A DNA stretch of 64,000 nt, taken from NCBI GenBank assembly GCA_905178155.1, contig CAJINV010000005.1, positions 9,150,874 to 9,214,873 on the forward strand. The letters run 5' to 3'. This document shows positions 1 to 64,000 of the stretch, piece by piece. Below the pieces are notes generated by a model. The model saw nothing but the letters and a program-made list of their open reading frames with translations, was not told the DNA's origin and ran no database searches. The first letter of the stretch is position 1; the number at the start of each line of letters is the position of its first letter. The position numbers and the translations under genes were made by a program. This DNA is from Amoebophrya sp. A120 (taxonomy: Eukaryota > Protista > Dinoflagellata).

Positions 1-92
1 GCTACGGCATGCATCACAGACATCATGGCTCATGCAAAACGTGCGTGACAAGTCTCAGAATCTTCCAGACCCAGACATTTTTGCATTTGATG
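1..92. mobile_element. Introner-like element, family A (right part only)
   Basis: Ends CTTCCAGACCCAGACATTTTTGCATTTGATG; truncated by the window start. Confidence 0.85.
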
Positions 93-3000
93 CCGGATTC
101 TCCAGTCGCACGAGAGCAACGGTTTTGTCAAATTTCTCCAAGTGGTGCTGCTCACTATTGTGCCAAAGTCCTTGACCTGGATCACGCTCTGTAATAATTT
201 CGTCCCGATCTCGCTCGTCGTGCAACTGCAGCTCAACAGGCTGTTCCAAGTGCTCTTTCTGGTGAAGGATGACGAGTTCTTGAAGCTGTATGAAGGTGAC
301 TCTGTAGTAGAAAAGCCGAGGGCTGCCGTTGAGAACTACCCGAAAAGCCCCAGTACACCATCACCAGCTTATTTGCTGCCAACAGCCGATGGGGATGAAG
401 ACCAAATTCCTGTCGCGCTGCAGATTGAACCATCCGTGGATCAGACACGGGAAAGCGAAGCGGGTGTTCTATCAAATGTAAAAATGTCTGGGTCTGGAAG
501 GATACAACTTGTGATGCTAATTTTGGAATCTACATAAAAACTGTATTGCATGAACAGCAAAAGAGGTGTAATTTGTGCTAGGCGGAGAGGGCATTTCTCA
601 TGCGGTATGAGCATCAGAAAGCCCTCGCAAAATCTTCATGACAAACTCCTGCATTCTTCCAGACCCAGACATTTTGCAATCCATATGCTCTTGCAGTCAG
701 AGGACCACCTGAAGAACAACAACCTTTGCTGCGAAGTTTTCCTTTTGACGATCCAGATTTAAATCGGACTTCCCCGGCGTCTTCTACTGCGTCCCCAAGC
801 TCCAGTAGCTCAGGAATGACAGTCACTACAGGCTCAAATTCGGTGACAGGAGAAGTAGAAATAGGTGATATTTCCTCAACATCCCTCCGCGGCTTCGAAC
901 GTCCGCAAGTGAACCGTTCGAATTTACTGGAAGAATTGGGGCACATCACGCACATTGTCACGGATAAAACGGGAACTTTGACAAAGAACGAAATGTCGTT
1001 CCACTCGAGTTTTGGATTCGAGAGGGGAACAGAAGTGAGGAGTGGCGAGGAGTGCACTTTTGCGATGTTAACTGACACTGACCCACCGGTGGATGATCCT
1101 GCGTCTCCCGAGAGCAGCAGCAGCAGCGATTCTTCCTCCCTTTTCGCGACACTCTTGCCAAGCTATGCAAAAAACGCCAATAGCTTTTCCGGAGATCCCG
1201 CATCAGAGGAAAAACTCTCCATGTTCCTCGCCATGGCTTTGTGTCACACGTGTGAACGAGATTTGGAAACTGGGAATTTGTCGTCCGCCAGCCCAGAGGA
1301 GATTGCTTTGGTGGAAGCAGCGGAGAATTGTGTGGGGATAGAATTTCTCGCCGTGAGGGACACTGATATTTGTGCCGCTAGTTGTACAACTTCCACGTCG
1401 TCGTCAAGCTCTTCTTTACCTTCCTGTTTCACGTACGACGTACGCATACCGTTTATTCAGCCGGGCGTGTCTGGGTCTGACGATCATGGTGTTGAGCATG
1501 ACAACCTCGCGCCAGTCATCTCCTTCGAAATCGCAAAGGTTTTAGAGTTCAACTCCGACAGAAGACGAATGAGCATCGTCGTGAAAATTCCAGAGACGCT
1601 GCCAATACCGAAAAAGCCACCAGATAGGGCGGAGTCTCCAGTTGTGATTCTGAATGATGATACAAATGCAGCGGGCAGCGCCGACTCTGTAATGCCAGAC
1701 AGGCATGCGAGAGCAAATGAAGAGCTACCCGCGCAAAACAAGTACCCCGCGGACTATGTCCTTATCTGCAAGGGCGCTGACTCAGTTCTGATTGACGACC
1801 TCTCACTTACCTCCCGGAACGCAGATAAACAACGAGGACCTTGCGAGAAAACACAAAATTTGAAAAGGAAAATTAAAGAGTTGAGCGAAACGGGGCTCCG
1901 GACGTTGGTTTTTGGCTGGAAAAAGTTAGACGCGAAAGAAGTTGCCAGCCTGTTCTCCACGACAGGTTGTGAAGGCGATGATGCTACTGGCAGCACGACA
2001 GTAGATGCAGACCTGACAGCCACGACTACAGCGAGTTACACTTCTTGTTCATCTTCGTCGGCCTCTTCCCAGGCCAGAAGGGTCGAGTCTGCAGCACGAA
2101 AATCATCTTCAAAAACAACCGACGATCTGGAAAAAGATCTCCATCTCCTCTCCGCTGTCGCAATTGAGGACGCGTTGGCGAACCACGTCGCGGAAACCGT
2201 CGACGTGATAAAGAAAGCGGAAAAAATCAAGCTCTGGGTCTGCACCGGGGACAAACCGGAGACTGCCGTTGCGGTGGCAAAGAGCTGCCATATTGTGGAT
2301 GAGAGTATGGAGGTGTGGAACTTAAACGATGAATCCTCGCTGGAACTCCCTAACTCCGTTGATTGTTACGCTTCCTCTTTTTCAACGTATGCCGCGGTTG
2401 TGACGGGGGATAAGTTTTGTCAGATTATAGCCGGCGACAGCGACTCTATTTCTTTCTCTTCGGGTGAGAGTGAGATAAGAAAAAAAGCGGCACTGTTATC
2501 ACCTGCACCACCACCAGCAGTGGGGAAGAAACTACATGTAGCGCAAGCGGAAGTAGAACTCCTTCGTTCGGAAAAGAACGTAGAACCAGCTGCACATCGC
2601 AAGATCAACCAAGACCTGCAAAACTTCCTCCTAAACGCCACCGCCGTGATCATCTCAAGAGTTTCGCCGAAGCAAAAACGGGAAGTGGTTCGATTCTTGC
2701 AAGGCCGAAATATCAAGGGGAAGAAGGGGAAAACGAAGCTGAAGAACACCGTTTTAGCAATCGGCGACGGGGCAAATGACGCCGGGATGATAAAGGAAGC
2801 CACGGTTGGCATCGGGTTGTACGACTGTGCCCTGATGAAGAGCTTTGTTCAGGAGCAGGAAGATTCTTGTGCAGCTGCTGATGATGCAAATTATCTCAGT
2901 AACGCAACGGGAACTACGACAGCCACAAGTACCCGGCCCAAAAAGAACCCGGCGTTACAAACAGCTGCCGTCCGACAAGCGGATTTCGCCTGTGGTCACT

Positions 3001-5785
3001 TCGCGTGCTTGCAAAGGTTGATCTTCGTTCATGGGAGAGAAGCGCACCGGAGGAACGCGTTTTTTCTGCAATTTATGGTCTACAAGAACGTGATTTGCAC
3101 TGTTCCCTTCGTTATCAAATGCAAAAATGTAGTCTGTGTCTGGGAAACTCCGAGATTTGTGATGCAGTTTTTCCAAGCTCCCCCACGTCTGAAATGCAGG
3201 GCCTAGCATCACAGATTCTGCAGTTCCTTGGTGATGCGTATTCTGCATGAGAAATGCCCTCTCAGCATGGCCAGAAGTGGGCACCTTTTGCACGTTTATG
3301 CATCACCGATCTTTGTAGGATCCGAAACACGCATCACAAGTTCGGATCCTTCCAGACCCAGACATTTTTACATTTGATATTCGTGCTCTTCGGGTTCTTG
3401 AGCAACGAGGCGAGCGGGTATCCGTACGTGTACCCGTTTCTGTATCAAAGTGAAAACACCCCTCCCCATACTAATTCGGAGATTTGTGTAGCATGATTTG
3501 GGACCACAAATCATTTTGTCATGCTAGAAGGCAGAAGATGCGAACTGTAGTGCTGGCTGGCGTGGGAAGGCCTTGCATCTTCAGCATGACAGGAGGCAAC
3601 TGGAAGGGGGGGTCAGCATGACAAATTGGCCGCAACTAAGGCCGCAGCTGCGTCTCTTGGCCTCCTGGCAATACAAACCGACTTGTGTGATGCAAATCCA
3701 GCATCACAAATTTCATGTCCGATATGGGGAGGGGGGGCGTTTCTTCACGATATTCTGTATTCGATGTTCAACACGGTCTTTACCGGAGTTGGAGTTTTCG
3801 CCTTTGCCGTGTTCGACCACGAGGATTATGCAGCAGAAGCAGAACAGCATGACAGAAAGAATCGGAAATGCAGAAACAGCATGACAACTTCCACCCCTGC
3901 AACTTTCATCTCTTGGGACCAGAAACTCATATACAACTGCGATAAAACCTACAACAAATGTGTTCCAAGTTGCCACGCGAAAAACTACAAGCACACGCGG
4001 CGGGAAAGATATGCAAGAAAAAAGCTGTGTAAGTGTAAATCTGTGATGCAGAAAATGCAAAACAGTTACACTTGTCATGCGGGAAGTGCGTCATAGGCTA
4101 CTATCGTACACGTTTCCACGTACTAGCTGCGCATGACAGGTTTTCCCTGTAAAATGCAAAACGAATCTGTGATGCTGCTCTTCCTACAAAGTTACACTTA
4201 CACAATTTTTTTCCTTGATAGAAGAACCGGTTATATCAATCCGAAACTCCTTTCCACCTGGCTTTTACTATCAATTGTAAAAATGTCTGGGTCTGGAAGA
4301 ATCCAACTTGTCATGCTGATGTTGGATTATAAAAAAATCTGTATTGCATGAGCAGCAAAGGGAGTCCAAGTTTTGCTACACGGAAAGAGCATTTGTCATG
4401 CGGTATAGGCATCAGGAAGCCCTCACAAAATCTGTGATGCTAGGGCATGCATCACAGACATCAGGAGTCATGCAAAATGTGCATGACAAACCTGGCAATC
4501 TTCCAGACCCAGACATTTTTACATTTGATATTTCCTTGGTGTGTTCCATTCAGTAATAATCCACTTTTTGGTTTTCGAGATTGGTACCGTCGGGACGAGC
4601 AATTTCGTGTTACTGAACAACTGCGGCTTACTATCCCGTGTAAAAACGTCCCCACCCCAGAGTTTTCATGCAGATTTGCAATGACAAGAACATTTGTGAT
4701 GCGCAGCCCCATGACAGGAATTTTTTATCGTGGTTTGAAATTTGTAATGCTCGAAACAGGATCATGATTAGCTGGATTTGTAGTGCGGCTGTCCTTGCTA
4801 AGAACCTGCACTACGCTACGAGCTGCAACTTGTCATGCGTGACTCCCAAAGCTTCTGGGTTTGTGTTGCAAATAAATCCCCATGTTGGCTGCGGGGCTGG
4901 GACGTTTTTACTTGGGATACTTACTTGCGTTTGGTTTAATGATCCTCCTCGCGAACTTCACACTATCCAAGAAAAAAACACCATCACAATCACTTTTGCA
5001 CAGTTTTGCAATACAAAAATTTTTGTCATGCGCAAAACTGCATCACAGTCAAGAGTTATAGGCGATTTTTATCGCCTATAACTCTTGACTGTGATTTTGC
5101 AATACAAGAAAAATTTGTTATGCGAGACAAATTTCTGATGCGAAACTTCCCAAGTGTGATTGTGATGGTGTTTTTTTCTTGGATACACACTTCTCTTCTG
5201 CCACTACGGAAGCAAGGCGAACAACTGCAGATACTTGAACGGCTTTGTTCTATTCGGCTGCCTGTTCGGGTTTTTCCTCTACCTCCCGTTCTACGTTTCG
5301 CATCTAGAAACTGGGGGCGACGAGGTGAAGACGGTGGTTGGTATTGCAGACGTCTTTGCGGGACGGGCTATCCTATGTAAAAACGTCCCCACACCAGAGT
5401 CAAGTTGGGAATCTAGCAACACAAATCTCCAAGTTTTGGGAGCTGTGCATGACAAGCTTTCCTCTGCAGTGTGGGGCTTGTTGGCAAGGGTAGCCGCATG
5501 AGAAAGCCACTTTCTGATCTTGTTTACAGCGTTACAAATAATTCCAGAACGCGACTGGTAATGCCTCCCATGGAGGTGCGCATTACAAATGTTTCTGCAA
5601 TTGCAAATCTGCATGACAACTATGGGATGGAGACGTTTTTACACAGGATACGGGTTTCTTCTTGGTACGAACTGGTCTACGACCCATACGGAATTCTGCC
5701 GATGGCGGGGTCGACAGTAGTTGGAATTTTCTTACCGTTTATCTTGGTGTCGGGGCACAGGATGATGCGGGTTCCAGATCTGTAA
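1..5785 (+). CDS. P4-type ATPase (phospholipid flippase), 5' end outside the window; multi-exon
   Basis: Motifs NNFVPISL, LLEELGHITHIVTDKTGTLTKNEM (phosphorylation Asp), ASPEEIALV, FNSDRRRMS, CKGADS, GLRTLVF, AIEDAL, WVCTGDKPETA, SRVSPKQK, AIGDGAND, then C-terminal TM segments (YKNVICTVPFV-LFGF, YSMFNTVFTG..VFDHED). Frame is restored after removing 8 TIR elements plus one 5-bp repeat each; stop TAA at 5783-5785. Confidence 0.93.
470..685. mobile_element. Introner-like element, family A (short, 216 bp)
   Basis: TATCAAATGTAAAAATGTCTGGGTCTGGAAG...CTTCCAGACCCAGACATTTTGCAATCCATA; flanks TGTTC/TGCTC; removing 216+5 nt joins ORF 142 to ORF 726 in frame. Confidence 0.88.
3113..3379. mobile_element. 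Introner-like element, family A
   Basis: Family A TIRs; direct repeat TTCGT/TTCGT; removal gives VPFV-LFGF. Confidence 0.92.
3443..3752. mobile_element. Introner-like element, family B
   Basis: TATCAAAGTGAAAACACCCCTCCCCATA...TATGGGGAGGGGGGGCGTTTCTTCACGATA; repeat TTCTG/TTCTG. Confidence 0.9.
4010..4220. mobile_element. Introner-like element, family C
   Basis: TATGCAAGAAAAAAGCTGTGTAAGTGTAA...TTACACTTACACAATTTTTTTCCTTGATA; flanks AAAGA/GAAGA. Confidence 0.87.
4269..4530. mobile_element. Introner-like element, family A
   Basis: Family A TIRs; flanks TTTAC/TTTCC; near-identical to 57658-57919. Confidence 0.92.
4632..4919. mobile_element. Introner-like element, family D
   Basis: TATCCCGTGTAAAAACGTCCCCACCCC...GGGGCTGGGACGTTTTTACTTGGGATA; repeat CTTAC/CTTAC. 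Confidence 0.92.
4964..5185. mobile_element. Introner-like element, family E
   Basis: Perfect TIR TATCCAAGAAAAAAACACCATCACAATCAC / GTGATTGTGATGGTGTTTTTTTCTTGGATA; repeat CACAC/CACAC. Confidence 0.92.
5369..5650. mobile_element. Introner-like element, family D (opposite orientation to 4632)
   Basis: TATCCTATGTAAAAACGTCCCC...GACGTTTTTACACAGGATA; flanks CGGGC/CGGGT. Confidence 0.9.
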
Positions 5786-6629
5786 AGATCAGATTGTGAA
5801 ATAGAAGCCGGCTTTTATTGCTTTACAGGTCGTGATGAAAAAAATTCTGTACTTTTTCAGTAGTCAAATGTATCAAATTTTGTTTTTTATTTGTGAGTTT
5901 CTCACTCACGACGGGCTTCCGTGCAAGCCAGAATCAAATGTACGTCTTCTACAGCTGCCGCCATACAACGGGCAGTCTAGAAAGATCCACAAAATAAATG
6001 CACGGCTGTGGTCTCCTGGAATATGACTTGTCGAAGCCACCTTCTCCTCAATGTATGTATGTCAAATATTTTGACACCAATATTATTCATTGTAGGCACA
6101 ACTACTGCATCAATCATCGCTCCTTGCTCTCATGCGACACTAATGAATACTTTGAACAGCAACAATGAACAAGAGTCCGCGCATAACGCTGCGAAGACGT
6201 TTTTCAAACAACTCTACTTACAATAACGAAAGCAAAGTACAACAACTTTCAACGGCGACAACGTCTGTGGTGCTATTCTTGCTTGCAACGTCAGACGTTG
6301 TAAGTACTAGAGCAGGCGTTTATTTTCTTTTGCGGGCCTCGATGCTGCCTGGCAAATCTGTGTAACATCAAATGCTACGAGCGAAGTTCTCCACTTTTTT
6401 GAGTGACGTGTGCAGTACTGTCGGTTGTTTTTTTCAAGCGATTTACACTCCAACCGAATCCGATAAACAACTCTTTCTCTTTTTGAAACAAATCTACTGT
6501 AGCTTCGATTTCTCCAATTACTTCTTGTTTCTGGAAAATGTAAGGAGGTTCTGTGCGACGTCCAGTGGTGGAAAGAACGACGGAAACGACCACAGGAAAA
6601 GGCAGCAATCCACTGCTACACAAGCTCGC

Positions 6630-9600
6630 ATGAGCAGTTTTACTCAACCTACGACCGGCAACAAACCAAGCTCTAGCCACAGCATTTCCACCGGAGACGA
6701 GAAGACCCGCAACCACTTGCTAGTACACCAACAAGGAGATCTTCGGGAGCAATTCAACAGACCGTTTACGAAAAATCCTTCCAGTAAAGAACAGCTCCTG
6801 CTCTCCTGCCCCGACTCCCCGGAAACCGACGAATCCGTGAGCATCATGGCGGATAACACACCCAAAACTCCCACCCAGGCCTGGACGGCCCCACCGAAAA
6901 CAATATCTCGTGCAAAAGTATCGTACTCGTATTAGTTGCACACATGCATGACAAATCTCTTTCCTAAGGCAAAATAGCATTACAAATTTCATTTGTTATG
7001 CTGAGCTAATTTGTCATGCGATTTATACGAGTACGATACTTTTGCAATGCATAAACAAGTGCCGGAAAGAATATTGAACCGAGTTCCGCGGCAAGCTCTA
7101 ACATCGTCTACAATGACGAACGATATTCGCCGAACGCCACGACAAACAACAACCAAAAATCGTCCCAGAAATCAACCCCCTCCGGCTATGGGAATGATGA
7201 CATGATCCGCTCCTCTAGTTCTGTCCGCTACCGACAGGGCGGGCACCCGAGGTTGTTCGAAAACATTGGGAGGACGCATGGACAATCGGTCGATGGGTTG
7301 TTAACGGATTTTTACCAAATAACGATGGCCTATGCGTATTGGAAAGCGGGGAAGCACGAACAAAGGGCGGTTTTTGACGCCTATTTCCGCAAGTGCCCGT
7401 TCAAGGGGGAGTACTGCATTTGCGCAGGTATAATTTTTGTGGTTGATAAGATAATTGAAATTTGTCTTGCAGTCGTGTGTCCAGGAGAGATGCAGTTTGT
7501 CATGCTAATACTTGAGTACAAACAAATGAAAAGGTATCAACGAGACCGTCCGCTTCCTGAACACTTTCGGCTACAGCGACAAGCAAATTGACTACCTGAA
7601 AATCCAAATGCCCACGGCGCAACCGGAGTTCTTCGACTATTTAGCACAGCTCGACGCCTCGGAATTGACGGTGATGGGGATGCGAGAAGGGGAAATCGTG
7701 TTCCCGAACCAACCTTTATTAAGGTTAGAAGGGCCATTAATCGTCTGCCAACTGCTGGAAACGACTGTTTTGAACCTTCTCAACTACCCTTCCCTAATCG
7801 CCACCAACGCGGCCCGGTACTATCAAAGGCAAATATGTCTGGGTCTGGAAGACTGCAAGTTTGTCATGCTTGTCTGGCATGACTCTCAAATCTGTGTTGC
7901 GTGAGCACGAAGAGGCTCTCTTGCATGTCGTGCAAAAACGCAGTTTGTCATGCGGAATACGCAACACCTAGCAGCCCAAAAAGTTGTCATGCTTGGCTGC
8001 GTATTGCATTGCGAATATCATTCATTTTTAGCATTACAAGTTTCGAGACCCAGACATATTTGCAGTCCATAGGTACCGGCAGGCGGCCACTTCTGGTGTC
8101 ACGGCGAGTCAAGCGTATGCAATGCAAAAGTATCGTACTTTAGTATAAACCGCATTACAAATTTCCTTAGCATGAGAAATGAAATTTGTAGTGCGGATTT
8201 ACCACAAGAAAAAGATTTGTAATGCATGACTGCAATTGCTACGAGTGCGATACTTTTGCAATGCATAAAGTGGGGCAGACGCCAAGTGCGCGGGCTTCCA
8301 TGAGCCAAAGATCGCCGAACGAGCGGGTGAATACGTCAAATGCACCGATGGGGAACGCGCCGGTGTTGATCGAGATGGGTTGTCGCCGGGCGCAAGGGCC
8401 GGACGGGGCTTTGTCCGCCGCACGATACAGCTATTTGGGCGGGTTTGACGCGACATCAAATGTGAAGGCGGGACACGTTTTTGACGTGCCGATTAAGGGG
8501 ACCCACGCGCACGCGTTTGTGACGTCGTTTAACAGTTTAGACGAAGTGAAGAGGATAAACTGCGGAAAATTGGGGGACAAGTTTGTCAGCGATGTGCTCA
8601 GCTACAGACCAAAGGTACTTACAACAACTCTATGCGATTTTGCTTACATGTAGTTGTTGAATTGAGCACAGGTTTTTGCACCGTTACTTCTATACGTTGA
8701 ATTAGCTTTCAGCAATAGCTGGGAGCTTCTACTGGTGAGGACGACAACACTCTTCTCTTTTATCTACACGCTCTATCTTTACATTTAAAACACAAAACAG
8801 ATCGCACCGCAGTCGAACGATGGCGAGTTAGCGGCTTTTGTCAGTTACGCAACGTCCTTTCCAGACACTTTTCTCGCTTTGGTCGACACCTACGACACTC
8901 TGATTTCGGGCATCCCAAATTTCCTCTGCGTCGCATTGGCGTTATTGGACCGGGGGCATAAATATGCATTGCAAAAATGTCTGCGTCTGGAAGATTGCAA
9001 CTTGTCATGCTAAATCCGAATCATGCAAAAATCTGTGTTGCATGAGTGCCAAAAGCTTTTCACTTTTGACCTAATCGAGAGGCAGTTTCTCATGCAGGAT
9101 AGGCATGATAGAGGTCGCACGAAATCTGTTATGCTAGGTCGTGTATGACAGACCTCGCGCGTCATGGAAAACCTGCATGACAAGTCTTGCAACCTTCCAG
9201 ACCCAGACATTTTTACATTTGATAATAAACCAGTTGGTGTCCGGTTGGACAGCGGCGATCTGGCTTACTTGAGTACTGTTTGCGATATATTTGAGACTTC
9301 TTTGTCATGCTAGATTTGAAAAAGGGAACACGAGATGATGAAACTTGTCATGCAGGAAAGGCACTCGACGAAAATATAAATAGGTACTTAAATTTCATTA
9401 TATCAGGTAAAGAAGCGAAGGAAATGTTTCGCGAGTGCTCGGATGGCCCGCATTGCAAAACCGTCGAAGTCCAAGAAGCATTACTAACTTTGAAGGTCTG
9501 CGCATCAAATGATATCAACGAAGTGACACTTCAATCCCTAAACGAGCAGGGGCACGGGATTGATATCTACGGAATCGGAACAAACCTTGTTACCTGCCAA

Positions 9601-10471
9601 GCGCAACCGGCGTTGGGAATGGTATCGAATGTTGTGATGAAGCATGACAAAAAATGTAGTCGATGTTCTGCATCTTTATATGAGGTGGATTTTGTAATGC
9701 AACTCTTGATGTTCTTTCATCGATCGTCCAGGTCCTTGTGGTGTCAGAATCACCTTGTTTGAAAGGTCGTTCTGCAATACAAATTTCCTCCACGACTTTC
9801 CAGGTCTACAAGCTCGTGGAACTGGACGGCGATCCGCGAATGAAGCTTTCCCAGGAGTTTAGCAAAGTGTCCGTCCCGAGTAAGAAAAAGGTGTACCGAC
9901 TGTACAACAGTAAAGAGGAGCCGCTGATTATCGTACGAAAAAAGTGTTACAGTTACACATTTGTTGGCAAAAATTCAGCAACACAAATTTCTCTGCATGA
10001 AAGAAAAAACTTGTAATGCGCGGACTACAAGGGAAAGCACGAATGAAATGAGACTGGCAAGCATTTCCTACATGACAGAGGTTGTCTGTCTTGCTTGTCT
10101 TCCATTAGAGTGTGTAACTGTAAGACTTTTTTCTCAGGATACTGATCGACCTGATGCAGCGCGAGTCCGAGGCCCCACCCAAAGCTGGGGACCGGATTTT
10201 CTGTCGGCATTTGTTCGAGGAGACAAAGCGGTGCTACGTGACACCCACCCGGGTGGAGGAGTTGTTGCACGAAGTGTGGGGAAGAACCCCCTGCGTGCCA
10301 ATGACGTTGGACGAAGCGAGGGAATTTTCGATGAACCGATTAGCCAGGTTTAGACCGGACATCTTGCGGCCGCTGAACCCCACGCAGTACAAGTTAGCGG
10401 TGTCGGACCCGTTTTTCGGGTTTTTCAAGCAGATGTGGCAGAAGTCCGCGCCGATCAAGGAGCTGACGTGA
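6630..10471 (+). CDS. NAPRT: Nicotinate phosphoribosyltransferase with a long low-complexity N-terminal extension
   Basis: [116 protein letters not shown]. Five TIR introns plus GT-AG introns at 7428-7533, 8615-8800, 9273-9406 and 9622-9803. The start codon is uncertain. Confidence 0.95.
6904..7053. mobile_element. Introner-like element, family F
   Basis: TATCTCGTGCAAAAGTATCGTACTCGTA...TACGAGTACGATACTTTTGCAATGCATA; repeat AACAA/AACAA. Confidence 0.92.
7821..8071. mobile_element. Introner-like element, family A
   Basis: Family A TIRs; repeat GGTAC/GGTAC (one of the few copies where a GT-AG register exists). Confidence 0.9.
8116..8267. mobile_element. Introner-like element, family F (opposite orientation to 6904)
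   Basis: TATGCAATGCAAAAGTATCG...CGATACTTTTGCAATGCATA; flanks AAGCG/AAGTG. Confidence 0.9.
8963..9224. mobile_element. Introner-like element, family A
   Basis: Repeat ATAAA/ATAAA; removal gives [13 protein letters not shown]. Confidence 0.93.
9929..10141. mobile_element. Introner-like element, family C
   Basis: TATCGTACGAAAAAAGTGTTACAGTTACAC...GTGTAACTGTAAGACTTTTTTCTCAGGATA; repeat CTGAT/CTGAT; removal gives PLI-DLMQ. Confidence 0.9.
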
Positions 10472-11219
10472 CTTTAGTAGAGTGGGGCTCTCTTGAATTT
10501 GGTGGTGTCGCGCAGGCAGGTGTAGAGCGGAAAGTTGAAATTTTAAGTCGAAGTGTAGTAGCTACCGTTCTTTCAACATCTAGTGCCTATTGCTTTCACC
10601 TCCGACGTAACGCTGTGACTTTTACTGAAATTTTTACAAACGCAAGCGAGCAAGGCAGCGCGCTGAGGACGGGCGTGCACCTGCTCCTTCTTCTAGTAGA
10701 GAAAGAAACAAAGTATTCAACAACCAGTACAAGTCTATATGAATGAAAGAGAAAGACCTATGTTGCTAACGCAGTAGAAAAAAGTGACGTGATTACAGTA
10801 AGGTAGTTTCACCTCGGCTTTTTCCTGCATTTATTTCGCGCAAACAATTCGACAGCACACGCTAGCAGCTGTCCTCATACTTACACTTACACTTACTCCA
10901 CCTGAAAATGCTTTATGGATTCTTCTCGGCTTCCATATTCTACAACGGAGGTAGAAAGCTCCATTTTGCAGAATCCGAATTCATCTTGATGAACCTATTC
11001 ACAAAATGAGCACCGTGATTTCTTCTGTTCTTGAAAAAAATCAAAATGATCTTCATAAGCGGAAGACGAATAGAAGGAAAAGAACAGAGCAGCAAGTAGT
11101 TGCAGGCATGGTTGGCTATGTCTTTGGAAAAAAAGTGTGGGTGTTCCACTGTGGGCTGGGTGTAGCATTAATAATTTTCCGCCGAGCAGGAATTATTTCT
11201 GTCAAAGAACAGGAAGAAC

Positions 11220-13120: not shown

Positions 13121-13312
13121 AATTGAAGCGCGTTCATCTGGATCTGCTCCTTTTGTGGGTCGGTGACGTAGAATCCTTGACCCCCGTGTTCCCTCTGCCG
13201 GAGTGCGCCATTTCGCACGTCTTTCCAGAGAGTAAAAGGCCATCCTCCATTGAAGCCTCTATGTAAAAAATCCCGACTCCACCGTGCGACAGCAAAAATC
13301 GTTCAAGACAAG

Positions 13313-54070: not shown

Positions 54071-57000
54071 ATGGCCACAACCAACACCATATCCTATGTA
54101 AGAACGTCTCCATGCAGCTTGTGATGCAAATCTGCATGCTGGAAACATTTCGCATGCGGAGCCCCATGAGAAGTAATTGCCAGTCGTGTTCCGGAATTTG
54201 TCATGCTCCAATCAGCACCATATACTACATCTGTGATGCTGGTTTACTAGCGAAACAGGACCACACTAGCACGAGGTCAAACTTGTCATGCGCAAGATCC
54301 AATGCTTGTTGATTTGTCTAGCAGATTTCCCATCTTCACTATAGCGTGGGGACTTTTTTCCACAGGATACACCAGTTTCGATCTCCTCCCGGGCCTCGGG
54401 ACCATGCCAGGCTTTATCCTGTGCAAAAGTATCGTACTCGTAGTAATCGCAATTATGCAATACAAATCTTTTTCCTAAGGTGAGTCAGCATTACAAATTC
54501 TATTTCTCATGCTGAGGGAATTTGTCATGCGATTTCTACTTAGTACGATACATTTGCAATGCACAGGCTTCGTGAAAGAGCGATACGAGCACCGCCCCGT
54601 GAAGCACAAACTCAATCTATTACGCGCGAAGTGGGATCGGGTTCTGGCGGAGAAGGTAGTATAATTGTGAAATTCGACGGTGGATCACGAACACGGAGTG
54701 TACCTCTTCTGCTGCGTGACAAGAAATGCAAATTACAAAGTTTGCAACCGGGTCAACAGCACCCTCAGTCGTTCTTGTGATTTTTCAATTGCAAATCTCT
54801 CAGTCATCTGCTATCGTATTTATCAGGAGCCGTCAGTCCCGCCGAGTCTGGTTCACAGCAAGTACAAATCCGCGGGTCTGACCGACTATTCTCTGCAACA
54901 GTATCGTACTCGTATTGCAGTCCTGCATTACAAATTTGTTTGTGAAGGTAAACTCGCATTACAAATTTCATTTCATCTCATGCGGAGGAAATTTGTAGTG
55001 CATTTATACGAGTGCGATACTTTTGCAATGCATACCGACGACAATGCCGGGGAGTTCAGTCCTGCGAAGATGCGCGCGTCCTTGAAATATGCATTGCAAA
55101 TATGTCTGGGTCTGGAAGAATGCAGGAGTTTGTCATGCAGATTTTGCATGACCCATGAGGTCGGTGATGCATGCCCTAGCATCGGAGACTTTGCGAGGGC
55201 TTTCTCATGCTCGTACCGTATGAGAAATGCCCTCTCCGCGTAGCAAAAATGACACCACTTTTGCTGTTCATGCAATACAGACTTTATGTAGAGTTCAGAG
55301 GTAGCATCACAAGTTGCATCCTTCCAGACCCAGAGACTTTTGCATTTGATATGAAAATGCAGGACAGCCGGAACAAGGTCATTTTGCCCGGGAATCTAGT
55401 TTTACCGGTGCAAAAACAGGATACAGCGAAATTCTATTTCCACGGAGCTGCGAGTGCGAGTGCGACGACTCGTCCGACCGCCCTGTCTGACGGAATGCTG
55501 CTGTCGTCGTTCCAACACGGAGGTGGACAGATGAATCCGCACGACGACTATTATCCACCAGCCTCCGGCGGAACAAGCTTTCAGTCCTCTACGGGGATGA
55601 AAAAGACCACGAGCGTGAACAAATTCGAGAACAAATTCGATTACGACAAAAACGTCGATTTAAACCGACGGGCCTCGCTCCCGACCTACCACAGAGGTGG
55701 TGGTAGTGACGGGCTGATGAAAATAAAAAACACCAGACCCGCAGCGCATCTTCCGCCAAAACCGCTTTTCGGGTCTTCCTCCTCCTCTTCCTCGTCGAAC
55801 CTAAAAAGAACTTCTTCGCCGAAGAACGTGGTAAAGACAGCTTCTGGAACAACTACATCTGCACCAGGCATGACAGCCAGTCCGCTCCTGTTTACTATTC
55901 CAAATGCCGCTTCCGCCTCGCCCGGGAGCCCCGTGAGAACGTCAAGACAAATGAATTACACAAACACCCGGATGAACTACAACTACGGCTCTACAACTGT
56001 CTCCGATTTCTCCGCGAAGATCCACTCCGAGTATCAGTCTTTGATGAAGTCTATCAAATGTAAAAATATCTGGGTCTGGAAAAATGGAACTTGTGATGCT
56101 AACTTTGGACTCTAAAAAAATCTGTATTGCATGACCAGCAAGAGGAGCCACATTTGTGCTACGCGAGGAGGGCATTTGTCATGCGGAAATGGCATCAGGA
56201 AGCTTTCCAAAAGTCTGTGATGCTGGGTCATGCATTACAAGCACCATGGGTCATGCCAGACAAGCATGATAAGCCTTGCGGCGCATATCCTTGCGGGAAC
56301 GTATTGAGCCCTTCAAGTATATTCGCCCTACTTTTGCATGCGCGGCGTGGGGGTTTGGATTTATTGTCGGTCTGCCATTTGCTCTCATTCGGTCGTGGGG
56401 CCTCACAGAAAGATATAGAAATCGTGCTCGTGCTGGGCGGGGAAAAATTGCATATGGGGCAGTAGATGTAGTTGTAGTCTGCATAGATCGTCATTGTGAC
56501 TATTTCCCTTCTAGTTTCCTCACAAACCCTGGTAGATTTTTATGTAGAATTACTTATGCAGAAGTACACTCGGAAGAATGGCGCACCGCAGAGAGAGCAG
56601 GCGAGAGAGCGGACGAGCGAGCGGCATGCGCGAGCAGCATGAGCGAGCAGCATGAGCGAGCGGCGCCGCGGCAGCGCCCGCGAAGCGAAAGCCTACGGGG
56701 CCCGGCCCAGAAGCAAAAAAGAACAAACCCGCGGGGGCCTCATGCCACTCATCCTCGGCAAGCCGGAAGGCCGCAGCCCCGGCAGTAGCAACAGTGGCGG
56801 CAGTAGTAGCAGTGCACTATCTAGATACTAGCTTAAAAGGGTCGTAGCGCAAAGAAAGAGGGGCAGTCCACAGAGGCTTTTTTGCATGGGGTCCACTGGT
56901 CACCGTTTCGCGCGAGCCATTCGGTGGACGACTGACCCCGCCCCATTTAGATAGCCGCTATGCGGGAGCTTTGTAAAAACTGGACTTCGTCCGTCTCCGG

Positions 57001-60000
57001 GTGGCGTGCCCGGGGTTCAGTCTAAATAAATTTGCCCGGGAAAATACCACGCAGCGGAGCAATCAGGCCTACTCGTAGGCCAGTCGGGGTCTACCCTTTC
57101 CCCACGTCGTCACATGTGGTTATTGGGTTCAGTTGGCATGTGTCAGGGGGTTCCTGTCTTTGGCATTTCCCGGCTCCTCCCATGGGTTCACTTCGACGAT
57201 TGCTGCCGGGGACATTCATATGCAGTCAGCCGGATGCCCGTGACCTGGCTCGTACTGCGAATGCAGCTGGATGACTGTGACCTGGCTCGTCTTCGATGGG
57301 CAGGCGGATGACTGTGACCTGTCTCGCCCATCAAGATCCCTAATCCGTAGCTCCTAGATGTTGCCCGGCCCGCGAATGACTCCAGGGCAGCCGGATGGCC
57401 GTGACCTGGTTATAAAGGGCTTCGTCGATCGATTGTGCCACTAGGGCCTTGTGTTCCGGCTACTCCGGATCGCAATCGATGGAGGGCGGGACCTGCACCG
57501 GCGACAGGCGCTATCCAACCAACCAACCAACCAACCAACCAAGCCTTCCACTCTTCCAGACCCAGACATTTTTGCACTTGATAAAGTCGCTGCTGCCCAT
57601 GCGCGCGGCGCTGGCAACCGGGACTCCCTTGGAAGCGGTGTGTACCGCGAGTCCGGTTATCAATTGTAAAAATGTCTGGGTCTGGAAGAATCCAACTTGT
57701 CATGCTGATTTTGGATTCTAAAAAAATCTGCATTGCATGAGCAGCAAAGAGAGTCCAAGTTTCGCTACACGGAAAGAGCATTTGTCATGCGGTATAGGCA
57801 TCAGGAAGCCCTGACAAAATCTGTGATGCTAGGGCCTGCATCACAGACATCAGGAGTCATGCAAAATGAGCATGACAAACCTGGCAATCTTCCAGACCCA
57901 GACATTTTCACATCTGATACCGGTTTTGGTGAGAGCAGCTGGCGGTGTAGTAACGAGCCCAAAGGGGGAGGAAAATCAAGGTGCGGCGGTAGCACCAACA
58001 ACAGCCGCGGGTTTGCAGCAGCAGCTGCACCAGATACAGCAGCAAAACGGAACACTTGTTTCCTCATCATCATCTACTTCGCAGTATCGGGCTTCCAGCA
58101 GCCCGCCGCTGCTGTTTAACCAGAACAGCGGGCCGGCCACCAGCAAGGGAACGATTAGTGGGACGGAACGGGAAGTTGCGACGGGGTTCGGTACAGCGAT
58201 GACGAAGAGCAATTTCAACCTTATTCCCCCCAGCAAAGCAGCATCTTCTGCCGGAACTGATTTCGCAAAATCAAGGCTGCCGTATTGGGAGAGGTTGGTT
58301 AAGAGTCACAGCTCCGGGAATGTGCGGGTAGTTTCAGACGGAAATGAGGACAATTCGCATGGTTTATTTGAAACGATGTTGAAAACAAATAGAGAAAAAG
58401 CGAGTTACAAGAACGTGAACAAACACAACTACCACCATTTGATCTCGCACATCCAAGACGAGGGCATTTTCCGGCCACCGAAACTACAGGGGATTTTGGA
58501 CATCAGCGGGATTTCGCCGGCGTCTGTTCTTGCTGGTGGTGGAGGGCACGGTAGGTTTTTTTGATGCCGTCGGAGGTTTTTCTCTTCGTGGACGACCTTC
58601 AGAACATTTCCGTACTGCTTTATCGGCCCGTGTGGCCGAACGGGTTGGTTGAGTTTTTCGTGGTACGAGGTTTTACCTCCAGCCCTCTAGGGTAAAACCT
58701 TCTTGAAAGGAGGTTTTACCCCAGTACGAAACAGGCTGCTGTGGTGGCTTTTTCGAGGTTTTACCCCTGGGGCAGGTGTAAAACCTCCAGCCCTCTAGGG
58801 TAAAACCTTCTTGAAAGGAGGTTTTACCCCAGTACGAAACAGGCTGCTGTGGTGGCTTTTTCGAGGTTTTACCCCTGGGGCAGGTGTAAAACCTCCAGCC
58901 CTCTAGGGTAAAACCTTCTTGAAAGGAGGTTTTACCCCAGTACGAAACAGGCTGCTGTGGTGGCTTTTTCGAGGTTTTACCCCTGGGGCAGGTGTAAAAC
59001 CTCCAGCCCTCTAGGGTAAAACCTTCTTGAAAGGAGGTTTTACCCCAGTACGAAACAGGCTGCTGTGGTGGCTTTTTCGAGGTTTTACCCCTGGGGCAGG
59101 TGTAAAACCTCCAGCCCTCTAGGGTAAAACCTTCTTGAAAGGAGGTTTTACCCCAGTACGAAACAGGCTGCTGTGGTGGCTTTTTCGAGGTTTTACCCCT
59201 GGGGCAGGTGTAAAACCTCCAGCCCTCTAGGGTAAAACCTTCTTGAAAGGAGGTTTTACCCCAGTACGAAACAGGCTGCTGTGGTGGCTTTTTCGAGGTT
59301 TTACCCCTGGGGCAGGTGTAAAACCTCCAGCCCTCTAGGGTAAAACCTTCTTGAAAGGAGGTTTTACCCCAGTACGAAACAGGCTGCTGTGGTGGCTTTT
59401 TCGAGGTTTTACCCCTGGGGCAGGTGTAAAACCTCCAGCCCTCTAGGGTAAAACCTTCTTGAAAGGAGGTTTTACCCCAGTACGAAACAGGCTGCTGTGG
59501 TGGCTTTTTCGAGGTTTTACCCCTGGGGCAGGTGTAAAACCTCCAGCCCTCTAGGGTAAAACCTTCTTGAAAGGAGGTTTTACCCCAGTACGAAACAGGC
59601 TGCTGTGGTGGCTTTTTCGAGGTTTTACCCCTGGGGCAGGTGTAAAACCTCCAGCCCTCTAGGGTAAAACCTTCTTGAAAGGAGGTTTTACCCCAGTACG
59701 AAACAGGCTGCTGTGGTGGCTTTTTCGAGGTTTTACCCCTGGGGCAGGTGTAAAACCTCCAGCCCTCTAGGGTAAAACCTTCTTGAAAGGAGGTTTTACC
59801 CCAGTACGAAACAGGCTGCTGTGGTGGCTTTTTCGAGGTTTTACCCCTGGGGCAGGTGTAAAACCTCCAGCCCTCTAGGGTAAAACCTTCTTGAAAGGAG
59901 GTTTTACCCCAGTACGAAACAGGCTGCTGTGGTGGCTTTTTCGAGGTTTTACCCCTGGGGCAGGTGTAAAACCTCCAGCCCTCTAGGGTAAAACCTTCTT

Positions 60001-62396
60001 GAAAGGAGGTTTTACCCCAGTACGAAACAGGCTGCTGTGGTGGCTTTTTCGAGGTTTTACCCCTGGGGCAGGTGTAAAACCTCCAGCCCTCTAGGGTAAA
60101 ACCTTCTTGAAAGGAGGTTTTACCCCAGTACGAAACAGGCTGCTGTGGTGGCTTTTTCGAGGTTTTACCCCTGGGGCAGGTGTAAAACCTCCAGCCCTCT
60201 AGGGTAAAACCTTCTTGAAAGGAGGTTTTACCCCAGTACGAAACAGGCTGCTGTGGTGGCTTTTTCGAGGTTTTACCCCTGGGGCAGGTGTAAAACCTCC
60301 AGCCCTCTAGGGTAAAACCTTCTTGAAAGGAGGTTTTACCCCAGTACGAAACAGGCTGCTGTGGTGGCTTTTTCGAGGTTTTACCCCTGGGGCAGGTGTA
60401 AAACCTCCAGCCCTCTAGGGTAAAACCTTCTTGAAAGGAGGTTTTACCCCAGTACGAAACAGGCTGCTGTGGTGGCTTTTTCGAGGTTTTACCCCTGGGG
60501 CAGGTGTAAAACCTCCAGCCCTCTAGGGTAAAACCTTCTTGAAAGGAGGTTTTACCCCAGTACGAAACAGGCTGCTGTGGTGGCTTTTTCGAGGTTTTAC
60601 CCCTGGGGCAGGTGTAAAACCTCCAGCCCTCTAGGGTAAAACCTTCTTGAAAGGAGGTTTTACCCCAGTACGAAACAGGCTGCTGTGGTGGCTTTTTCGA
60701 GGTTTTACCCCTGCCCTTCAGGGACGTCCGTTCCATGCGTGATTTGTGAATCAGAGCATTTCCTTTGTGATATGCGTCTTTGTCTTTTCACGGCAACAAC
60801 ACAAACTCAAAACAGCTCAACCTCCGCCGCATTTGCAGCAAGCAACGCCAGTAGATCATTCCACCACCGGGCGGCTGTCGGAGAAAGTACGGCAAAAATT
60901 TGGGACGGATGTGGATCTTTTACCGTCTTCTGCACACCAGCAGGAACCCAGTCCTAGTACAGCCGTGGTTCCAATTCTAATACGGGATAGCAGGGGAGCT
61001 GCGACGAGGAGCAGCAAAACAGCAGAACAACACGCACGAAAGACTTCTGTTGTCCGCGGTACCAGCAGCCGACGACCCTCGAAACCCCCTCCGGATCTTC
61101 ATGGTAGTAGAGCGGGTGTTGCTGGTGTTAGTAGCAAGGCGGGGTCGCCAGCGGATCAAATTCTTCTTGCCACTTCTGGAGGTGGTGGTTTTCAGGTAGA
61201 GCAGAGCAGCAAGCGCAGCAGCAGACGAAGCCCAGTGGAGGAAGAGCATTTTGATATAAACCCCGCAGCGGATAAAGATGATGGCGCTCAACAAGAAGAG
61301 GAAGAACTACCACCCGTGCACCCACCACTTCCGCCAACGAAACGAACTTCTTCGGCTTCTCGAAGATCTGGAGCAACAAGAAACCAAGTTAACTTCAGCA
61401 CCAGTGTGTCACGGAGAGCTGAGCTTGCGAAGGAGCGGATTCTGCAGGAATTCCTGGCAAACAAACCGAAATACATTTCCCCCATGTCGCAACCACGGAG
61501 TTCTACTTTGATGCGAGAACAACATCAAAACAGCGTAAGCCAAAGTAAGATGTCATCGACTAATTCCGCGTCACTCGTCGAAAACAGCAGTGCGAAGCAA
61601 ACCATGGAAACCGCGATGGCAGATTTATCGGCGATCGAGTTTGCGCAGCCTTCGTGCGTGGTACCTGCTTCTGCTGCTGCTGGTGGTGTCTCGTCCCCTA
61701 TCGCGAATCAAGATAAACAAAATCACGTTGCTATCCTGTGCAAAAGTATCGCACTCGTATAACTGCAAGGCTTGCATCACAAATTTTTTTCTGAAGGCAA
61801 ATCAGCATTACAAATTTCATTTCTCATGCTGAGGAAATTTGTAATGCATTTATAAGAGTGCGATACTTTTGCAGTTCATAGGTGCTAGTGCAGCTGCAAG
61901 GAGTAGAAGGAGGAGGATGCGGATCTCACCGCTCGTATCATGTGTAAAAACGCCCCCACCCCATAGTCAAGTTGGGAACTTGGCAACACAAATCCAGAAG
62001 TTTTGGGAGCCATGCATGACAAGTTGCAGTCCGTAGTGTAGTTCAGCAGGTTAGCAACGGAAACCGCATCACAAATCCATCTGCTCATCCTGTTTTCAGC
62101 ATTACAAATACCAAAACACGGCTCAAAGTGCCTCTCTTGGGTCTGCGCATTACAAATGTTCCTGTAGTCGCAAATCTGCATTACAACTCTGGGGTGGGGA
62201 CGTTTTTACTCAGGACATCTCGCGAAACACTACAACAACGAGGTGCATTTGTTTGATGAGGAAGATGAAAATAATGCTGCTGCCGTGAACATCGCGCATG
62301 ACAAACAGGAGAAGGACAGGAAAATAGACTCCGACCACACCGGTGGCACGATCACTTGGAACAGCAAACTGTCCGAAATGACGAGGAGTATGTTGC
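54071..62396 (+). CDS. Large Ser/Thr-rich low-complexity hypothetical protein; probably continues beyond the window
   Basis: Continuous frame from ATG 54071 through 8 TIR introns and predicted GT-AG introns 54599-54826 and 58551-60815, ending at a family-B left TIR at 62397. It could instead be two genes split at 58564. Confidence 0.62.
54090..54369. mobile_element. Introner-like element, family D
   Basis: Family D TIRs; repeat CACCA/CACCA. Confidence 0.9.
54415..54565. mobile_element. Introner-like element, family F
   Basis: Family F TIRs (ends ACA); repeat GGCTT/GGCTT. Confidence 0.9.
54887..55034. mobile_element. Introner-like element, family F
   Basis: Family F TIRs; repeat CCGAC/CCGAC. 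Confidence 0.9.
55088..55351. mobile_element. Introner-like element, family A (opposite orientation to 4269)
   Basis: Family A TIRs; repeat TGAAA/TGAAA. Confidence 0.92.
56052..57583. mobile_element. Introner-like element, family A, split by a 1.26-kb insertion
   Basis: Left TIR at 56052, right TIR ending 57583; repeat AAGTC/AAGTC. Confidence 0.9.
56278..57540 (+). mobile_element. Retroposon-like insertion with a (CCAA)n tail
   Basis: AAGCCTT duplicated at 56271-56277 and 57541-57547; 3' tail TATCCAACCAACCAACCAACCAACCAACC; no TIR and no reverse transcriptase motifs recognised. Confidence 0.72.
57658..57919. mobile_element. Introner-like element, family A
   Basis: Family A TIRs; repeat CCGGT/CCGGT. 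Confidence 0.93.
58666..60713. repeat. Tandem array, 108-bp unit, about 19 apparently identical copies
   Basis: Unit GAGGTTTTACCCCTGGGGCAGGTGTAAAACCTCCAGCCCTCTAGGGTAAAACCTTCTTGAAAGGAGGTTTTACCCCAGTACGAAACAGGCTGCTGTGGTGGCTTTTTC. Confidence 0.98.
61732..61880. mobile_element. Introner-like element, family F
   Basis: Family F TIRs; flanks GTTGC/GGTGC. Confidence 0.9.
61936..62217. mobile_element. Introner-like element, family D
   Basis: Family D TIRs (ends ACA); flanks GCTCG/TCTCG. Confidence 0.9.
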
Positions 62397-64000
62397 TATC
62401 AAAATGAAAAATCTCCCCTCCCCATATCTTAGTACTGATTTGGACCGACTTCAAAAATGTTAAGAAAATCGGAAAAAAATCCGCAAAAAATCCAGGCACG
62501 CCGCAAAAAATCGACTTTGTGCCGCGGCTGCTAACGTCCACAAGCGAAGCAAAGTAGCGCGAAACGAAGTCGGTTGCCCGCGTTCGCGAAGCTCGAGAAT
62601 GCGCCAACTCGGTCTCGCGGCAGTTTTTGCCGGTGTCCTCAGGCGTTAGGCCCCACCCTGGAGCATCCGGGCTGTCAGAAAGATTCCCGCAGCCGGGTTG
62701 GGGACGCCGGGTTGTCATATTCCGCCAGGCGGGCGGTGCTCACAAAATCGCTTTTGTGAGTACTCGCGGACAGATTCGATTTTGTGCGCACCCTTCCGGT
62801 ACGCTTCTCAAAGATGCCCTATCCTCGGGCGGGGCCACACAATCCGCGCGTGGTCGCAAATCGATTTTACCAACACAAATGCCGGAAAATCCGGCAAAAG
62901 CTGCAAAATTGATTGCGTGGGGCGAAGTCGCAGAGGACGGGCCTCTGCCCGCCTTGGATCGATGTTTCGGTCGCACGCTACAGGCTCAGGGATGATCGCG
63001 AATTCCAGAACTTGCGACCCGATGAAGTTCCGCGCATTCACCGTGTTGGCCCAGCGTAAAAACCAATGAGAATTCCCGAGATTGTGGATTTACATCCGGG
63101 CCCTAGTTCTGAAAAGCCGCGGGAGTGGCATGGGCCCCGTCTGCGTGTTCTGAGCTCCGTAGAGGCGCCAGGAACAGGCACTCGGCTGGCGCGGGGGTCG
63201 CAAAATCGATTTTGTGAACAGGCAGCCCTCGGTGGGTGCCGCGGCTCAGTCCTCGACAGCCGCTGGGCGCTTGGGGCGCAGAGTCGGGGACTTTAGTCAC
63301 TTCAGGCTCGCAGAATAGTCTGTGGGTTCAATCACCCGAGGCGCGCAAAATCGATTTTGCTGGCCCGCTCCTTGTGCGGTGTCTGCGTGAGTGGTGGCGC
63401 GGGCACAAGAGGTGGTGGGCCTGCTATGTGGGCAAGGTAGGTGGCAGTCCGGCTGCTTGGCAAAATCGATTTTCCAACTTCCTGAAAATCCAGAGGAACA
63501 AGTGTTCCGGAAGTCCGCGCGTTGGACTTTCCGGGACTGCCGAAAAATCGATTTTCCGGGTTCCGGAAATTCCGGAAATTCTAAAAAATCCGGAGTTTGC
63601 GAAAAATCCGGAATTTTCCGAAATCGAAAATCGAGATCGGGACATCAGCAAGTCCTCGAAATCGAAAACCGAGGCGGAAAATCGCTTTTCTGCTTCATTG
63701 CTACGGAGAACGGACCAAACCTGGTCCATACCATCGGCGGAGGCAGTTGCTTACTATCCAGTTGGTAATCTGCTGCCAAAAATCCGAGCGCTTGCATTTT
63801 CAAGAGATTCGGAGGCGCACCAAAGTCGATTTTCTGTGTGCCAAAAGTGCGCCCAAGTGTGCGCCAAAAGTGCGCAGGAGTTACTATTCAATAGTAACGA
63901 AGACGGACCAAACCTGGTCCATACCATGGGCGGAGGCAGTTGGTTACTATTCAATAGTAATTACTATTTTGCTCGGGACGCAACACAAAACAAATCGTAT
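62397..64000. mobile_element. Family B left TIR followed by an unrelated palindrome-rich sequence (probable nested insertion)
   Basis: TATCAAAATGAAAAATCTCCCCTCCCATATC, then many AAAATCGATTTT and TTCCGGAA palindromes; no matching right TIR within the window. Confidence 0.6.

What the first reader, a model, noticed from the sequence alone, without database searches (positions are those of the whole stretch)
1..62430. Multi-family system of TAT...ATA transposon-introns whose removal with one 5-bp repeat restores genes
Seen: about 53 elements in about 11 TIR families (A 23, D 7, F 7, C 6, B 4, six singletons). Nearly all share TAT/ATA termini and a 5-bp flanking direct repeat. In well-conserved genes (NAPRT, Get3, P4-ATPase, PRORP), deleting the element plus exactly one repeat copy rebuilds conserved motifs such as [13 protein letters not shown], whatever the element length mod 3. 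Established: introners with inverted and direct repeats and non-canonical ends are known from Amoebophrya, so the phenomenon itself is not new, but to my knowledge the removal mechanism and mobilising enzyme are unresolved. Inference: one rule (TAT/ATA ends, 5-nt stagger) covers every family, suggesting a shared transposase type and a shared removal pathway.
Basis: partly seen in the sequence, partly recalled or inferred. Interest (0 to 1): 0.92.

Follow-up and report, generated by a model that had tools for sequence, protein, structure and literature searches.

The report
Known Amoebophrya transposon-introns, fixed cut register
These are the already published jumping-DNA introns of the marine parasite Amoebophrya: in the one transcript seen here all five copies are cut out together with one 5-letter flanking repeat, likely at a single fixed position that earlier work left open, which would give a first testable rule for how they are spliced.

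Summary
Host proteins are 100% identical to Amoebophrya sp. A120 records, and the end motif TAT-N7-AAA is the one Farhat 2021 published. A spliced contig of NAPRT lacks all five elements plus one repeat each, 3061 nt as predicted; DNA contigs keep them. The 5-nt repeat holds in 373 of 411 repeat-blind pairs from a second assembly. Not found in the papers I searched: imperfect repeats fix the cut. Only 'keep 4 nt upstream, 1 nt downstream' reproduces four database proteins over 28 junctions. The intron is then N-TAT...ATA-NNNN: a start like the host's GTA donors with a free first letter, and no AG. The 5' TA is better kept than its 3' mirror (post hoc). Only one bound comes directly from RNA. 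No transposase was found; a Ginger-like candidate is in print. Best guess: a derived spliceosome.

The parts
1..92 (.). family A, right end only (ends ATG instead of ATA)
470..685 (.). family A in P4-ATPase; repeat TGTTC/TGCTC, gives k>=3
3113..3379 (.). family A, exact repeat
3443..3752 (.). family B, exact repeat
4010..4220 (.). family C; repeat AAAGA/GAAGA, gives k>=1
4269..4530 (.). family A; repeat TTTAC/TTTCC, gives k>=4
4632..4919 (.). family D, exact repeat
4964..5185 (.). singleton, exact repeat
5369..5650 (.). family D; repeat CGGGC/CGGGT, gives k<=4
6904..7053 (.). family F in NAPRT; 155 nt absent from the spliced contig
7821..8071 (.). family A in NAPRT; absent from the spliced contig
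8116..8267 (.). family F in NAPRT; repeat AAGCG/AAGTG, contig and protein give k>=4
8963..9224 (.). family A in NAPRT ([12 protein letters not shown]); absent from the spliced contig
9929..10141 (.). family C-like in NAPRT; absent from the spliced contig
13915..14129 (.). family C
14606..14884 (.). family D
14922..15080 (.). family F, one repeat mismatch
16250..16502 (.). family A
19928..20193 (.). family A
23122..23324 (.). family C
23758..24067 (.). singleton; repeat mismatch is silent, uninformative
24113..24375 (.). family A; repeat GCCGG/GTCGG, gives k>=2
25531..25701 (.). singleton, 5' of the Get3 ATPase domain
26222..26485 (.). family A in Get3/ArsA ATPase
28206..28458 (.). family A
31012..31291 (.). 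family D, one repeat mismatch
31350..31571 (.). family C
31943..32205 (.). divergent family A, starts TAC
32263..32433 (.). degenerate singleton, ends AAA, flanks TCCGA/CTTTT no longer match
   Evidence: read
34023..34305 (.). family A, ends GTA, flanks CAACC/CGCCT
35831..36097 (.). family A; repeat CCGAA/CGGAA, gives k>=2
36496..36757 (.). family A
36947..37258 (.). family B
37402..37690 (.). family D
37746..38065 (.). family B
38187..38582 (.). family A, 396 nt with extra internal sequence
41404..41583 (.). degenerate family F-like; flanks CTTTT/CCCTA, gives k<=4
41852..42122 (.). family A
42197..42465 (.). family A
42545..42802 (.). family A
43066..43285 (.). singleton; repeat CTACA/CTACG, gives k<=4; two homologs keep the same Gly
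43339..43608 (.). divergent family A
48272..48537 (.). singleton in the PRORP-domain gene
49111..49319 (.). family C in the PRORP-domain gene
54090..54369 (.). family D
54415..54565 (.). family F, ends ACA
54887..55034 (.). family F
55088..55351 (.). family A
56052..57583 (.). family A, 1532 nt, with a nested insert of about 1.27 kb ending in (CCAA)n; no Pfam hit
57658..57919 (.). family A
61732..61880 (.). family F, one repeat mismatch
61936..62217 (.). family D, ends ACA
62397..64000 (.). family B left end followed by over 1.6 kb of unrelated sequence that runs off the window; no Pfam hit
6355..11076 (+). NAPRT transcript: 5 elements and 4 GT-AG introns (7428-7533, 8615-8800, 9273-9406, 9622-9803) removed

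Best explanation
These are the published introner elements of Amoebophrya sp. A120: short inverted-repeat elements flanked by a 5-nt target repeat, kept in DNA and removed from mRNA with one repeat's worth of sequence, likely at a fixed register (1 nt before TAT, 4 nt after ATA) and likely by a derived spliceosome. Shown: anatomy, both orientations, removal of element+5 in one transcript, no GT-AG in any register for 279 of 293 elements. Inferred, about 0.8: the fixed register, which makes the intron N-TAT...ATA-NNNN in either orientation. Inferred, about 0.55: the element's TA(T) serves as positions +2 to +4 of a donor like the host's GTA donors, with a free +1, while the paired ends place the 3' cut by distance instead of an AG. 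Inferred, about 0.6: a DDE enzyme with a 5-nt stagger, probably integrase-like, acts in trans on the shared TAT-N7-AAAA ends. Because the signals sit inside a symmetric element, any insertion site in either orientation is tolerated.
For: Identity: 100% matches to named A120 proteins; end logo equals Farhat's description. RNA-level removal: X3 record 10 skips 5 elements and 4 GT-AG introns, total and all 5 gap lengths as predicted; X1 contigs run from exon into element ends. Register: 9 of 10 imperfect-repeat junctions in four database proteins are informative; 6 give lower bounds (two k>=4), 3 give k<=4; only k=4 gives 1194/1194, 812/812, 338/338 and 818/818; chance under a uniform register 0.012. 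One of the k<=4 sites (43066) was named as a test beforehand, and two homologs keep that Gly. Donor likeness: 10 of 10 GT-AG donors read GTA; in 395 oriented elements, changes at T1/A2 are 3 at the 5' end against 12 at the 3' end, and at T3 11 against 3, mostly to TAC (Fisher and label-flip p about 0.003; none of 22 other positions below 0.05). Farhat found 83 of 89 spliceosome proteins but no U1 snRNA. Ends pair in prediction for 47 of 47. Flanks show no base preference.
Against: Only one register bound (k>=4 at 8116) comes directly from RNA, and from one assembled contig at depth about 10 whose run is only guessed to be RNA. All three k<=4 bounds come from annotated proteins built from transcript alignments; at 43066 k=4 gives AT-AC, which aligners may favour (own knowledge). 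All 16 combinations of first and last intron letter occur, which the standard spliceosome's second step does not allow (own knowledge). The asymmetry statistic was chosen after seeing the data, rests on 29 changes, and uses a codon-model orientation that got 46 of 48 window elements right. TAT is predicted paired with ATA in 33 of 47 elements (my count), which would hide a donor. No G-U excess between the ends (277 against 245 A-C, p 0.17), so selection on RNA pairing is not shown. Codon and mutation-bias tests of the register were inconclusive, and an excess of silent mismatches at repeat position 1 is unexplained. No transposase was found, and Farhat reported none in A120.
Confidence: 0.55

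Rival explanations
1. Same elements and same 1+4 register, but removal is not spliceosomal: a structure- and sequence-guided endonuclease cuts beside the paired ends and an RNA ligase joins the exons, as suspected for euglenid nonconventional introns.
For: No constraint on the first or last intron letter; all 47 elements fold end to end, median z -7; fixed spacers between stem and cut define Euglena's code (abstract); euglenid introns leave as circles without lariats (review passage).
Against: The 5' end is constrained like a GTA donor and differently from its mirror. Three NAPRT elements with TAT predicted unpaired are cleanly removed. An octamer is shared with GT-AG introns.
Confidence: 0.3
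2. The cut slides or differs between elements inside the 5-nt repeat, and the apparent k=4 is a product of how aligners placed the junctions in the annotation.
For: Farhat calls splice positions variable and unknown. Annotated ends of the largest family are N-T in 6681 of 9716 and A-N in 6598 of 9716, a mirror pattern that fits aligner sliding between k=4 and k=1. Silent mismatches pile up at repeat position 1.
Against: 9 of 9 informative junctions fit one register; k=1 fails at 5 and k=5 at 3. The RNA contig itself excludes k<4 at 8116.
Confidence: 0.12
3. The elements are excised from DNA in some stage, like ciliate internal eliminated sequences, and the joined contig is DNA.
For: Precise loss of element plus one repeat is what such excision leaves (own knowledge); X3 is only guessed to be RNA.
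Against: The same contig also lacks four GT-AG introns. X1 contigs keep element ends joined to exons. Keeping 4 nt of one copy and 1 nt of the other needs no DNA step.
Confidence: 0.03

Closest known systems
Introner elements of Amoebophrya sp. A120 (Farhat 2021, PMC7789003)
   Same: Same organism by protein identity; TAT + 7 nt + A-tract ends; 3-5 nt repeats with a 5-bp example; RNA-supported non-canonical introns of about 240 nt.
   Different: Nothing in kind. The paper leaves the border unknown and treats repeats and splice motifs as diverse; here one repeat length and likely one register explain them. Its supplementary figures S19-S25 were seen only as legends and may show more.
A120 family 38, Ginger-like (Gozashti 2025, PMC12130899)
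   Same: Labelled '5-bp TSD, TA/TA Termini', about 810 nt, ORFs similar to Copia/Gypsy sequences.
   Different: Stated for 1 of 58 A120 families; most others are 'TIR DNA, unknown' with automated TSD calls of 2-6. No window element carries such an ORF.
Ginger2/Tdd transposons (Bao 2010, PMC2836005)
   Same: Inverted repeats, 5-bp TSD in TDD-4 and TDD-5.
   Different: Ginger ends are TGTNR; these are TAT. No integrase-like ORF was found here.
Euglenid and diplonemid nonconventional introns (PMC12501133, PMC12621601, PMC11282704)
   Same: No GT-AG, paired ends, TSD-like repeats, fixed spacer between stem and cut.
   Different: Euglena code is N3CDG...CH'GN5-6|R; here spacers are likely 1 and 4 nt, the motif is TAT, and no purine bias follows the cut.
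Fritillaria non-canonical introns
   Same: MITE-derived introns with TIR and TSD, reported as spliceosome-removed (review passage).
   Different: Those have dominant AG-AC and AG-AT ends; here first and last letters are free.

Membership tests
Amoebophrya A120 introner elements | Host genome is A120 | tested here: met
   three window exons 100% identical to proteins named Amoebophrya sp. A120
Amoebophrya A120 introner elements | Ends TAT, 7 variable nt, 3 or more A | tested here: met
   logo of 94 ends against the text; the scan asked for TAT within one mismatch, one search did not
Amoebophrya A120 introner elements | Direct repeat of 3-5 nt at the borders | tested here: met
   5 nt in 39 of 39 window pairs and 373 of 411 loci pairs
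Amoebophrya A120 introner elements | Removed from transcripts | tested here: met
   5 of 5 in one contig; 28 of 28 in database proteins
Non-autonomous TIR DNA transposon (MITE) | TIR, constant TSD, dispersed copies in both orientations, no coding capacity | tested here: met
Non-autonomous TIR DNA transposon (MITE) | Empty site with one repeat copy in a relative; autonomous partner | tested here: inconclusive
   none of 142 loci overlaps a window gene; no partner among window ORFs or 7 long copies
Ginger superfamily | TGTNR termini | tested here: not met
   92 of 94 ends have A at position 2; definition
Ginger superfamily | 4-bp TSD (5-bp in Tdd) | tested here: met
   5 bp, as in Tdd only
Ginger superfamily | Integrase-like DDE transposase | tested here: inconclusive
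   none in 133 of 133 ORFs of 120 aa or more, nor in 27 ORFs of long copies; the whole genome was not available
U2-type spliceosomal intron | GT/GC-AG ends | tested here: not met
   14 of 293 in any register
U2-type spliceosomal intron | Donor-like constraint at the 5' end only | tested here: inconclusive
   asymmetry p about 0.003 but post hoc, 29 changes
U2-type spliceosomal intron | Branch point and lariat | not testable with these tools
   needs lariat sequencing
Euglenid nonconventional intron | Paired intron ends | tested here: met
   predicted for 47 of 47
Euglenid nonconventional intron | N3CDG...CH'GN5-6|R signature | tested here: not met
   TAT/ATA with likely spacers 1 and 4; no purine bias after the cut
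Euglenid nonconventional intron | Circular excision product | not testable with these tools
   needs RNA experiments

The most novel reading that the evidence does not exclude
Most A120 introners are one intron class with one code, N|TA(T)...ATA-NNNN, read by a spliceosome without U1 that ignores both the first and the last letter of the intron and measures the 3' cut from the paired element end. The published diversity of splice sites is then mostly random target sequence seen through aligner sliding, A25's TTA start would be the same N-TA, and the octamer TGT[ACG]ATGC shared with GT-AG introns would be a common intron mark.
Probability: 0.4. Interest if true: 0.85.

Novelty: already known. 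Interest (0 to 1): 0.5.

Why it matters
How tens of thousands of non-GT-AG introns are removed in Amoebophrya is open; the original paper marks the border as unknown. A fixed 1+4 register turns this into concrete tests: where a lariat bond must lie, which bases a minigene needs, and how to re-annotate the genome. It would also explain why a transposon can land at any coding position in either orientation without harm, and it narrows the search for the mobilising enzyme to one with TA ends and a 5-nt stagger.

Tried and rejected
No whole genome was held. No RNA holder listed; X10 and X11 raw RNA laid almost only on element sequence (161 and 5 reads), so they say nothing about these junctions. 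The joint table was filled by DNA contigs of other copies, so junctions were derived from the piece table; raw-read support at other junctions is missing. Open-frame tests fix removal only modulo 3 (44 of 49 at +5, 41 at +2, 44 at +8); homolog scoring picked +5 for 3 of 4 NAPRT elements and was flat at 8116. The 23758 test of the register was silent. Codon-likelihood and mutation-bias tests: inconclusive. G-U wobble test: negative. The first/last-letter table departs from independence, but the two letters are neighbours in the exon, so I set it aside. Co-option of GT or AG from the target site: rejected. Transposase search: no DDE, integrase or recombinase family in window ORFs or long copies; two end patterns absent from viral contigs. 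No Rfam match. Published splice-dinucleotide counts fit N-T starts but are not counted as support, since aligner sliding gives the same. Literature searches for a stated register or mechanism found none; subscription papers such as Roy 2023 were not searchable. Earlier scan notes: none.
Full report
Observation. A strict scan found 55 TAT...ATA pairs with at least 17 of 24 complementary end bases; 29 have an exact 5-nt flanking repeat and none an exact repeat of 4 or 6-10 nt. Without asking for TAT, it is still the only enriched terminus outside the 108-bp array. A permissive scan gave 47 paired elements, with 32 perfect candidates against 1, 1 and 0 in shuffles. The pooled ends read TAT, seven variable bases, then AAA.

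Identity. Three window exons are 100% identical to proteins named Amoebophrya sp. A120. Farhat 2021 (PMC7789003; I read the abstract, passages, sections 10, 11, 12, 16, 25 and 34, and supplement legends and Table S4 rows, not the figures) describes A120 introners starting with TAT, seven less conserved bases and at least three A, with 3-5 nt repeats, no U1 snRNA found, no transposase found in A120, and borders that 'remain unknown'. Gozashti 2025 (PMC12130899; passages, one legend, all 58 A120 rows of its family table) labels family 38 Ginger with '5-bp TSD, TA/TA Termini' and lists a Mutator-like family with other ends. The system is therefore known.

Removal is at RNA level. Of four runs laid on 1-20000, X1 contigs keep element ends joined to exons. 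X3 record 10 covers NAPRT in six listed pieces. Removing five elements plus 5 nt each and four GT-AG introns predicts 3061 nt, the record's length, and all five gaps between pieces match. The translation equals P0001 in 812 of 812 residues. This is one contig of one run that the tool only guesses to be RNA; the loss of GT-AG introns is my ground for calling it mRNA.

The 5-nt rule at scale. Pairing ends without looking at flanks gave 411 distinct pairs: 312 exact 5-nt repeats, 373 with at most one mismatch, one exact 4-nt and no 6-nt repeat, against 1.3 expected from shuffled partners; 38 pairs fail, some likely mispaired. Length plus 5 splits 147, 120 and 144 over the three phases. In 293 oriented elements (245 of 358 scored loci elements plus 48 from the window) the flanks have no base preference and only 14 can be read GT/GC-AG in any register. 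Both orientations occur (family A 36 and 25, D 18 and 16). The removal signal must lie inside the symmetric element (inference).

The register. Where the two repeat copies differ, the mRNA shows which copy each base came from. Let k be the bases kept from the upstream copy. Database proteins give k>=3 (470), k>=1 (4010), k>=4 (4269, 8116), k>=2 (24113, 35831) and k<=4 (5369, 41404, 43066); 23758 is silent. Only k=4 reproduces all four proteins fully over 28 junctions. The contig independently gives k>=4 at 8116, and two homologs keep the Gly that k<=4 gives at 43066. Limits: the k<=4 side rests on annotation built from transcript alignments, P0024 is unnamed in its library, and two indirect tests were inconclusive.

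What the register implies. The intron becomes N-TAT...ATA-NNNN. All 10 GT-AG donors examined read GTA (six are checked against proteins, four read by eye). In 395 oriented elements found without using the first three letters, T1 and A2 change less at the 5' end (3 against 12) and T3 more (11 against 3, nine to C), as a donor-like role predicts; no other of 22 positions is asymmetric. This statistic was chosen after the fact. All 47 elements are predicted to pair end to end, but TAT itself is paired in only 33, and there is no G-U excess. All 16 first/last letter combinations occur. I commit to a derived spliceosome using TA as a donor and the stem as a ruler for the 3' cut (0.55), with a nuclease-ligase route like that suspected in euglenids as the main rival (0.3; PMC12501133 and PMC12621601 abstracts, PMC11282704 passages).

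Mobilising enzyme. Pfam scans of all 133 window ORFs of 120 aa or more and of 27 ORFs in long copies found no transposase, integrase or recombinase. The long copies are short-family copies with extra internal sequence. The 5-nt stagger and TA ends fit an integrase-like enzyme such as the family 38 candidate, but Ginger ends are TGTNR (PMC2836005 passages), so membership is not met. A shared enzyme remains an inference.

Scope. PMC12005148 passages say a third Amoebophrya uses GT-AG introns; PMC9860276 passages describe co-option of splice sites from the target in other introners, which does not apply here. Five literature searches found no statement of a fixed register or of the octamer; unseen supplementary figures of Farhat and unsearchable subscription papers may bear on this.

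Verdict. Real, already known as a system, with a likely new and directly testable splice rule. Interest 0.5.

Noticed in passing
window, elements and GT-AG introns (e.g. 7428-7533, 9273-9406, 22861-22987): The octamer TGT[ACG]ATGC is in 50 of 50 elements (75 sense, 73 antisense; shuffles 3) and in 6 of 10 GT-AG introns (8 sense, 1 antisense; shuffles 0.2), but occurs 5 times in 11 kb of exon and once in 15 kb between genes. It may be a shared intron mark or a remnant of elements.
   Followed up: partly
window and loci, 70 single-mismatch repeats: Mismatches at repeat position 1 are mostly silent (15 of 18) against 14 of 37 at positions 2-4 (p 0.002, post hoc). The fixed register does not predict this.
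   Followed up: partly
window 8973-9047 (reads of X10, one contig of X3): RNA from another locus keeps a family-A left end and diverges after about 85 nt; about 150 reads in X10. Not among the 142 loci. It may be a truncated, unspliced copy or a long element.
   Followed up: partly
window 56270-57545: An insert of about 1.27 kb inside a family-A copy, ending in (CCAA)n and bounded by a short direct repeat, like a non-LTR retroelement; 257 nt of it match L135 at 96%.
   Followed up: partly
window 62397-64000: A family-B left end followed by over 1.6 kb with short internal repeats and no Pfam hit; the right end lies beyond the window. A candidate long element.
   Followed up: partly
window 58567-60810, 28492-29857, 38959-40347: Tandem arrays of 108 nt (copies 100% identical), about 160 nt and about 297 nt. 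The last lies in a 2.5-kb GT-AG intron, 38737-41274; borders around the other two were not checked.
   Followed up: no
window 32263-32433 and 34023-34305: Degenerate elements whose flanks no longer match; removal of element+5 still keeps a frame. They bound the register on both sides and are the best single-site RT-PCR tests.
   Followed up: partly
PMC7789003 Table S4: All nine predominant A25 non-canonical sites start TT and A25 ends start TTA, which may be the same N-TA start. Not tested on A25 sequence.
   Followed up: no
window 10480-13300, 16950-19270, 43730-45540, 51950-54060: Long, very GC-rich stretches between genes with no Pfam hit and no elements.
   Followed up: no
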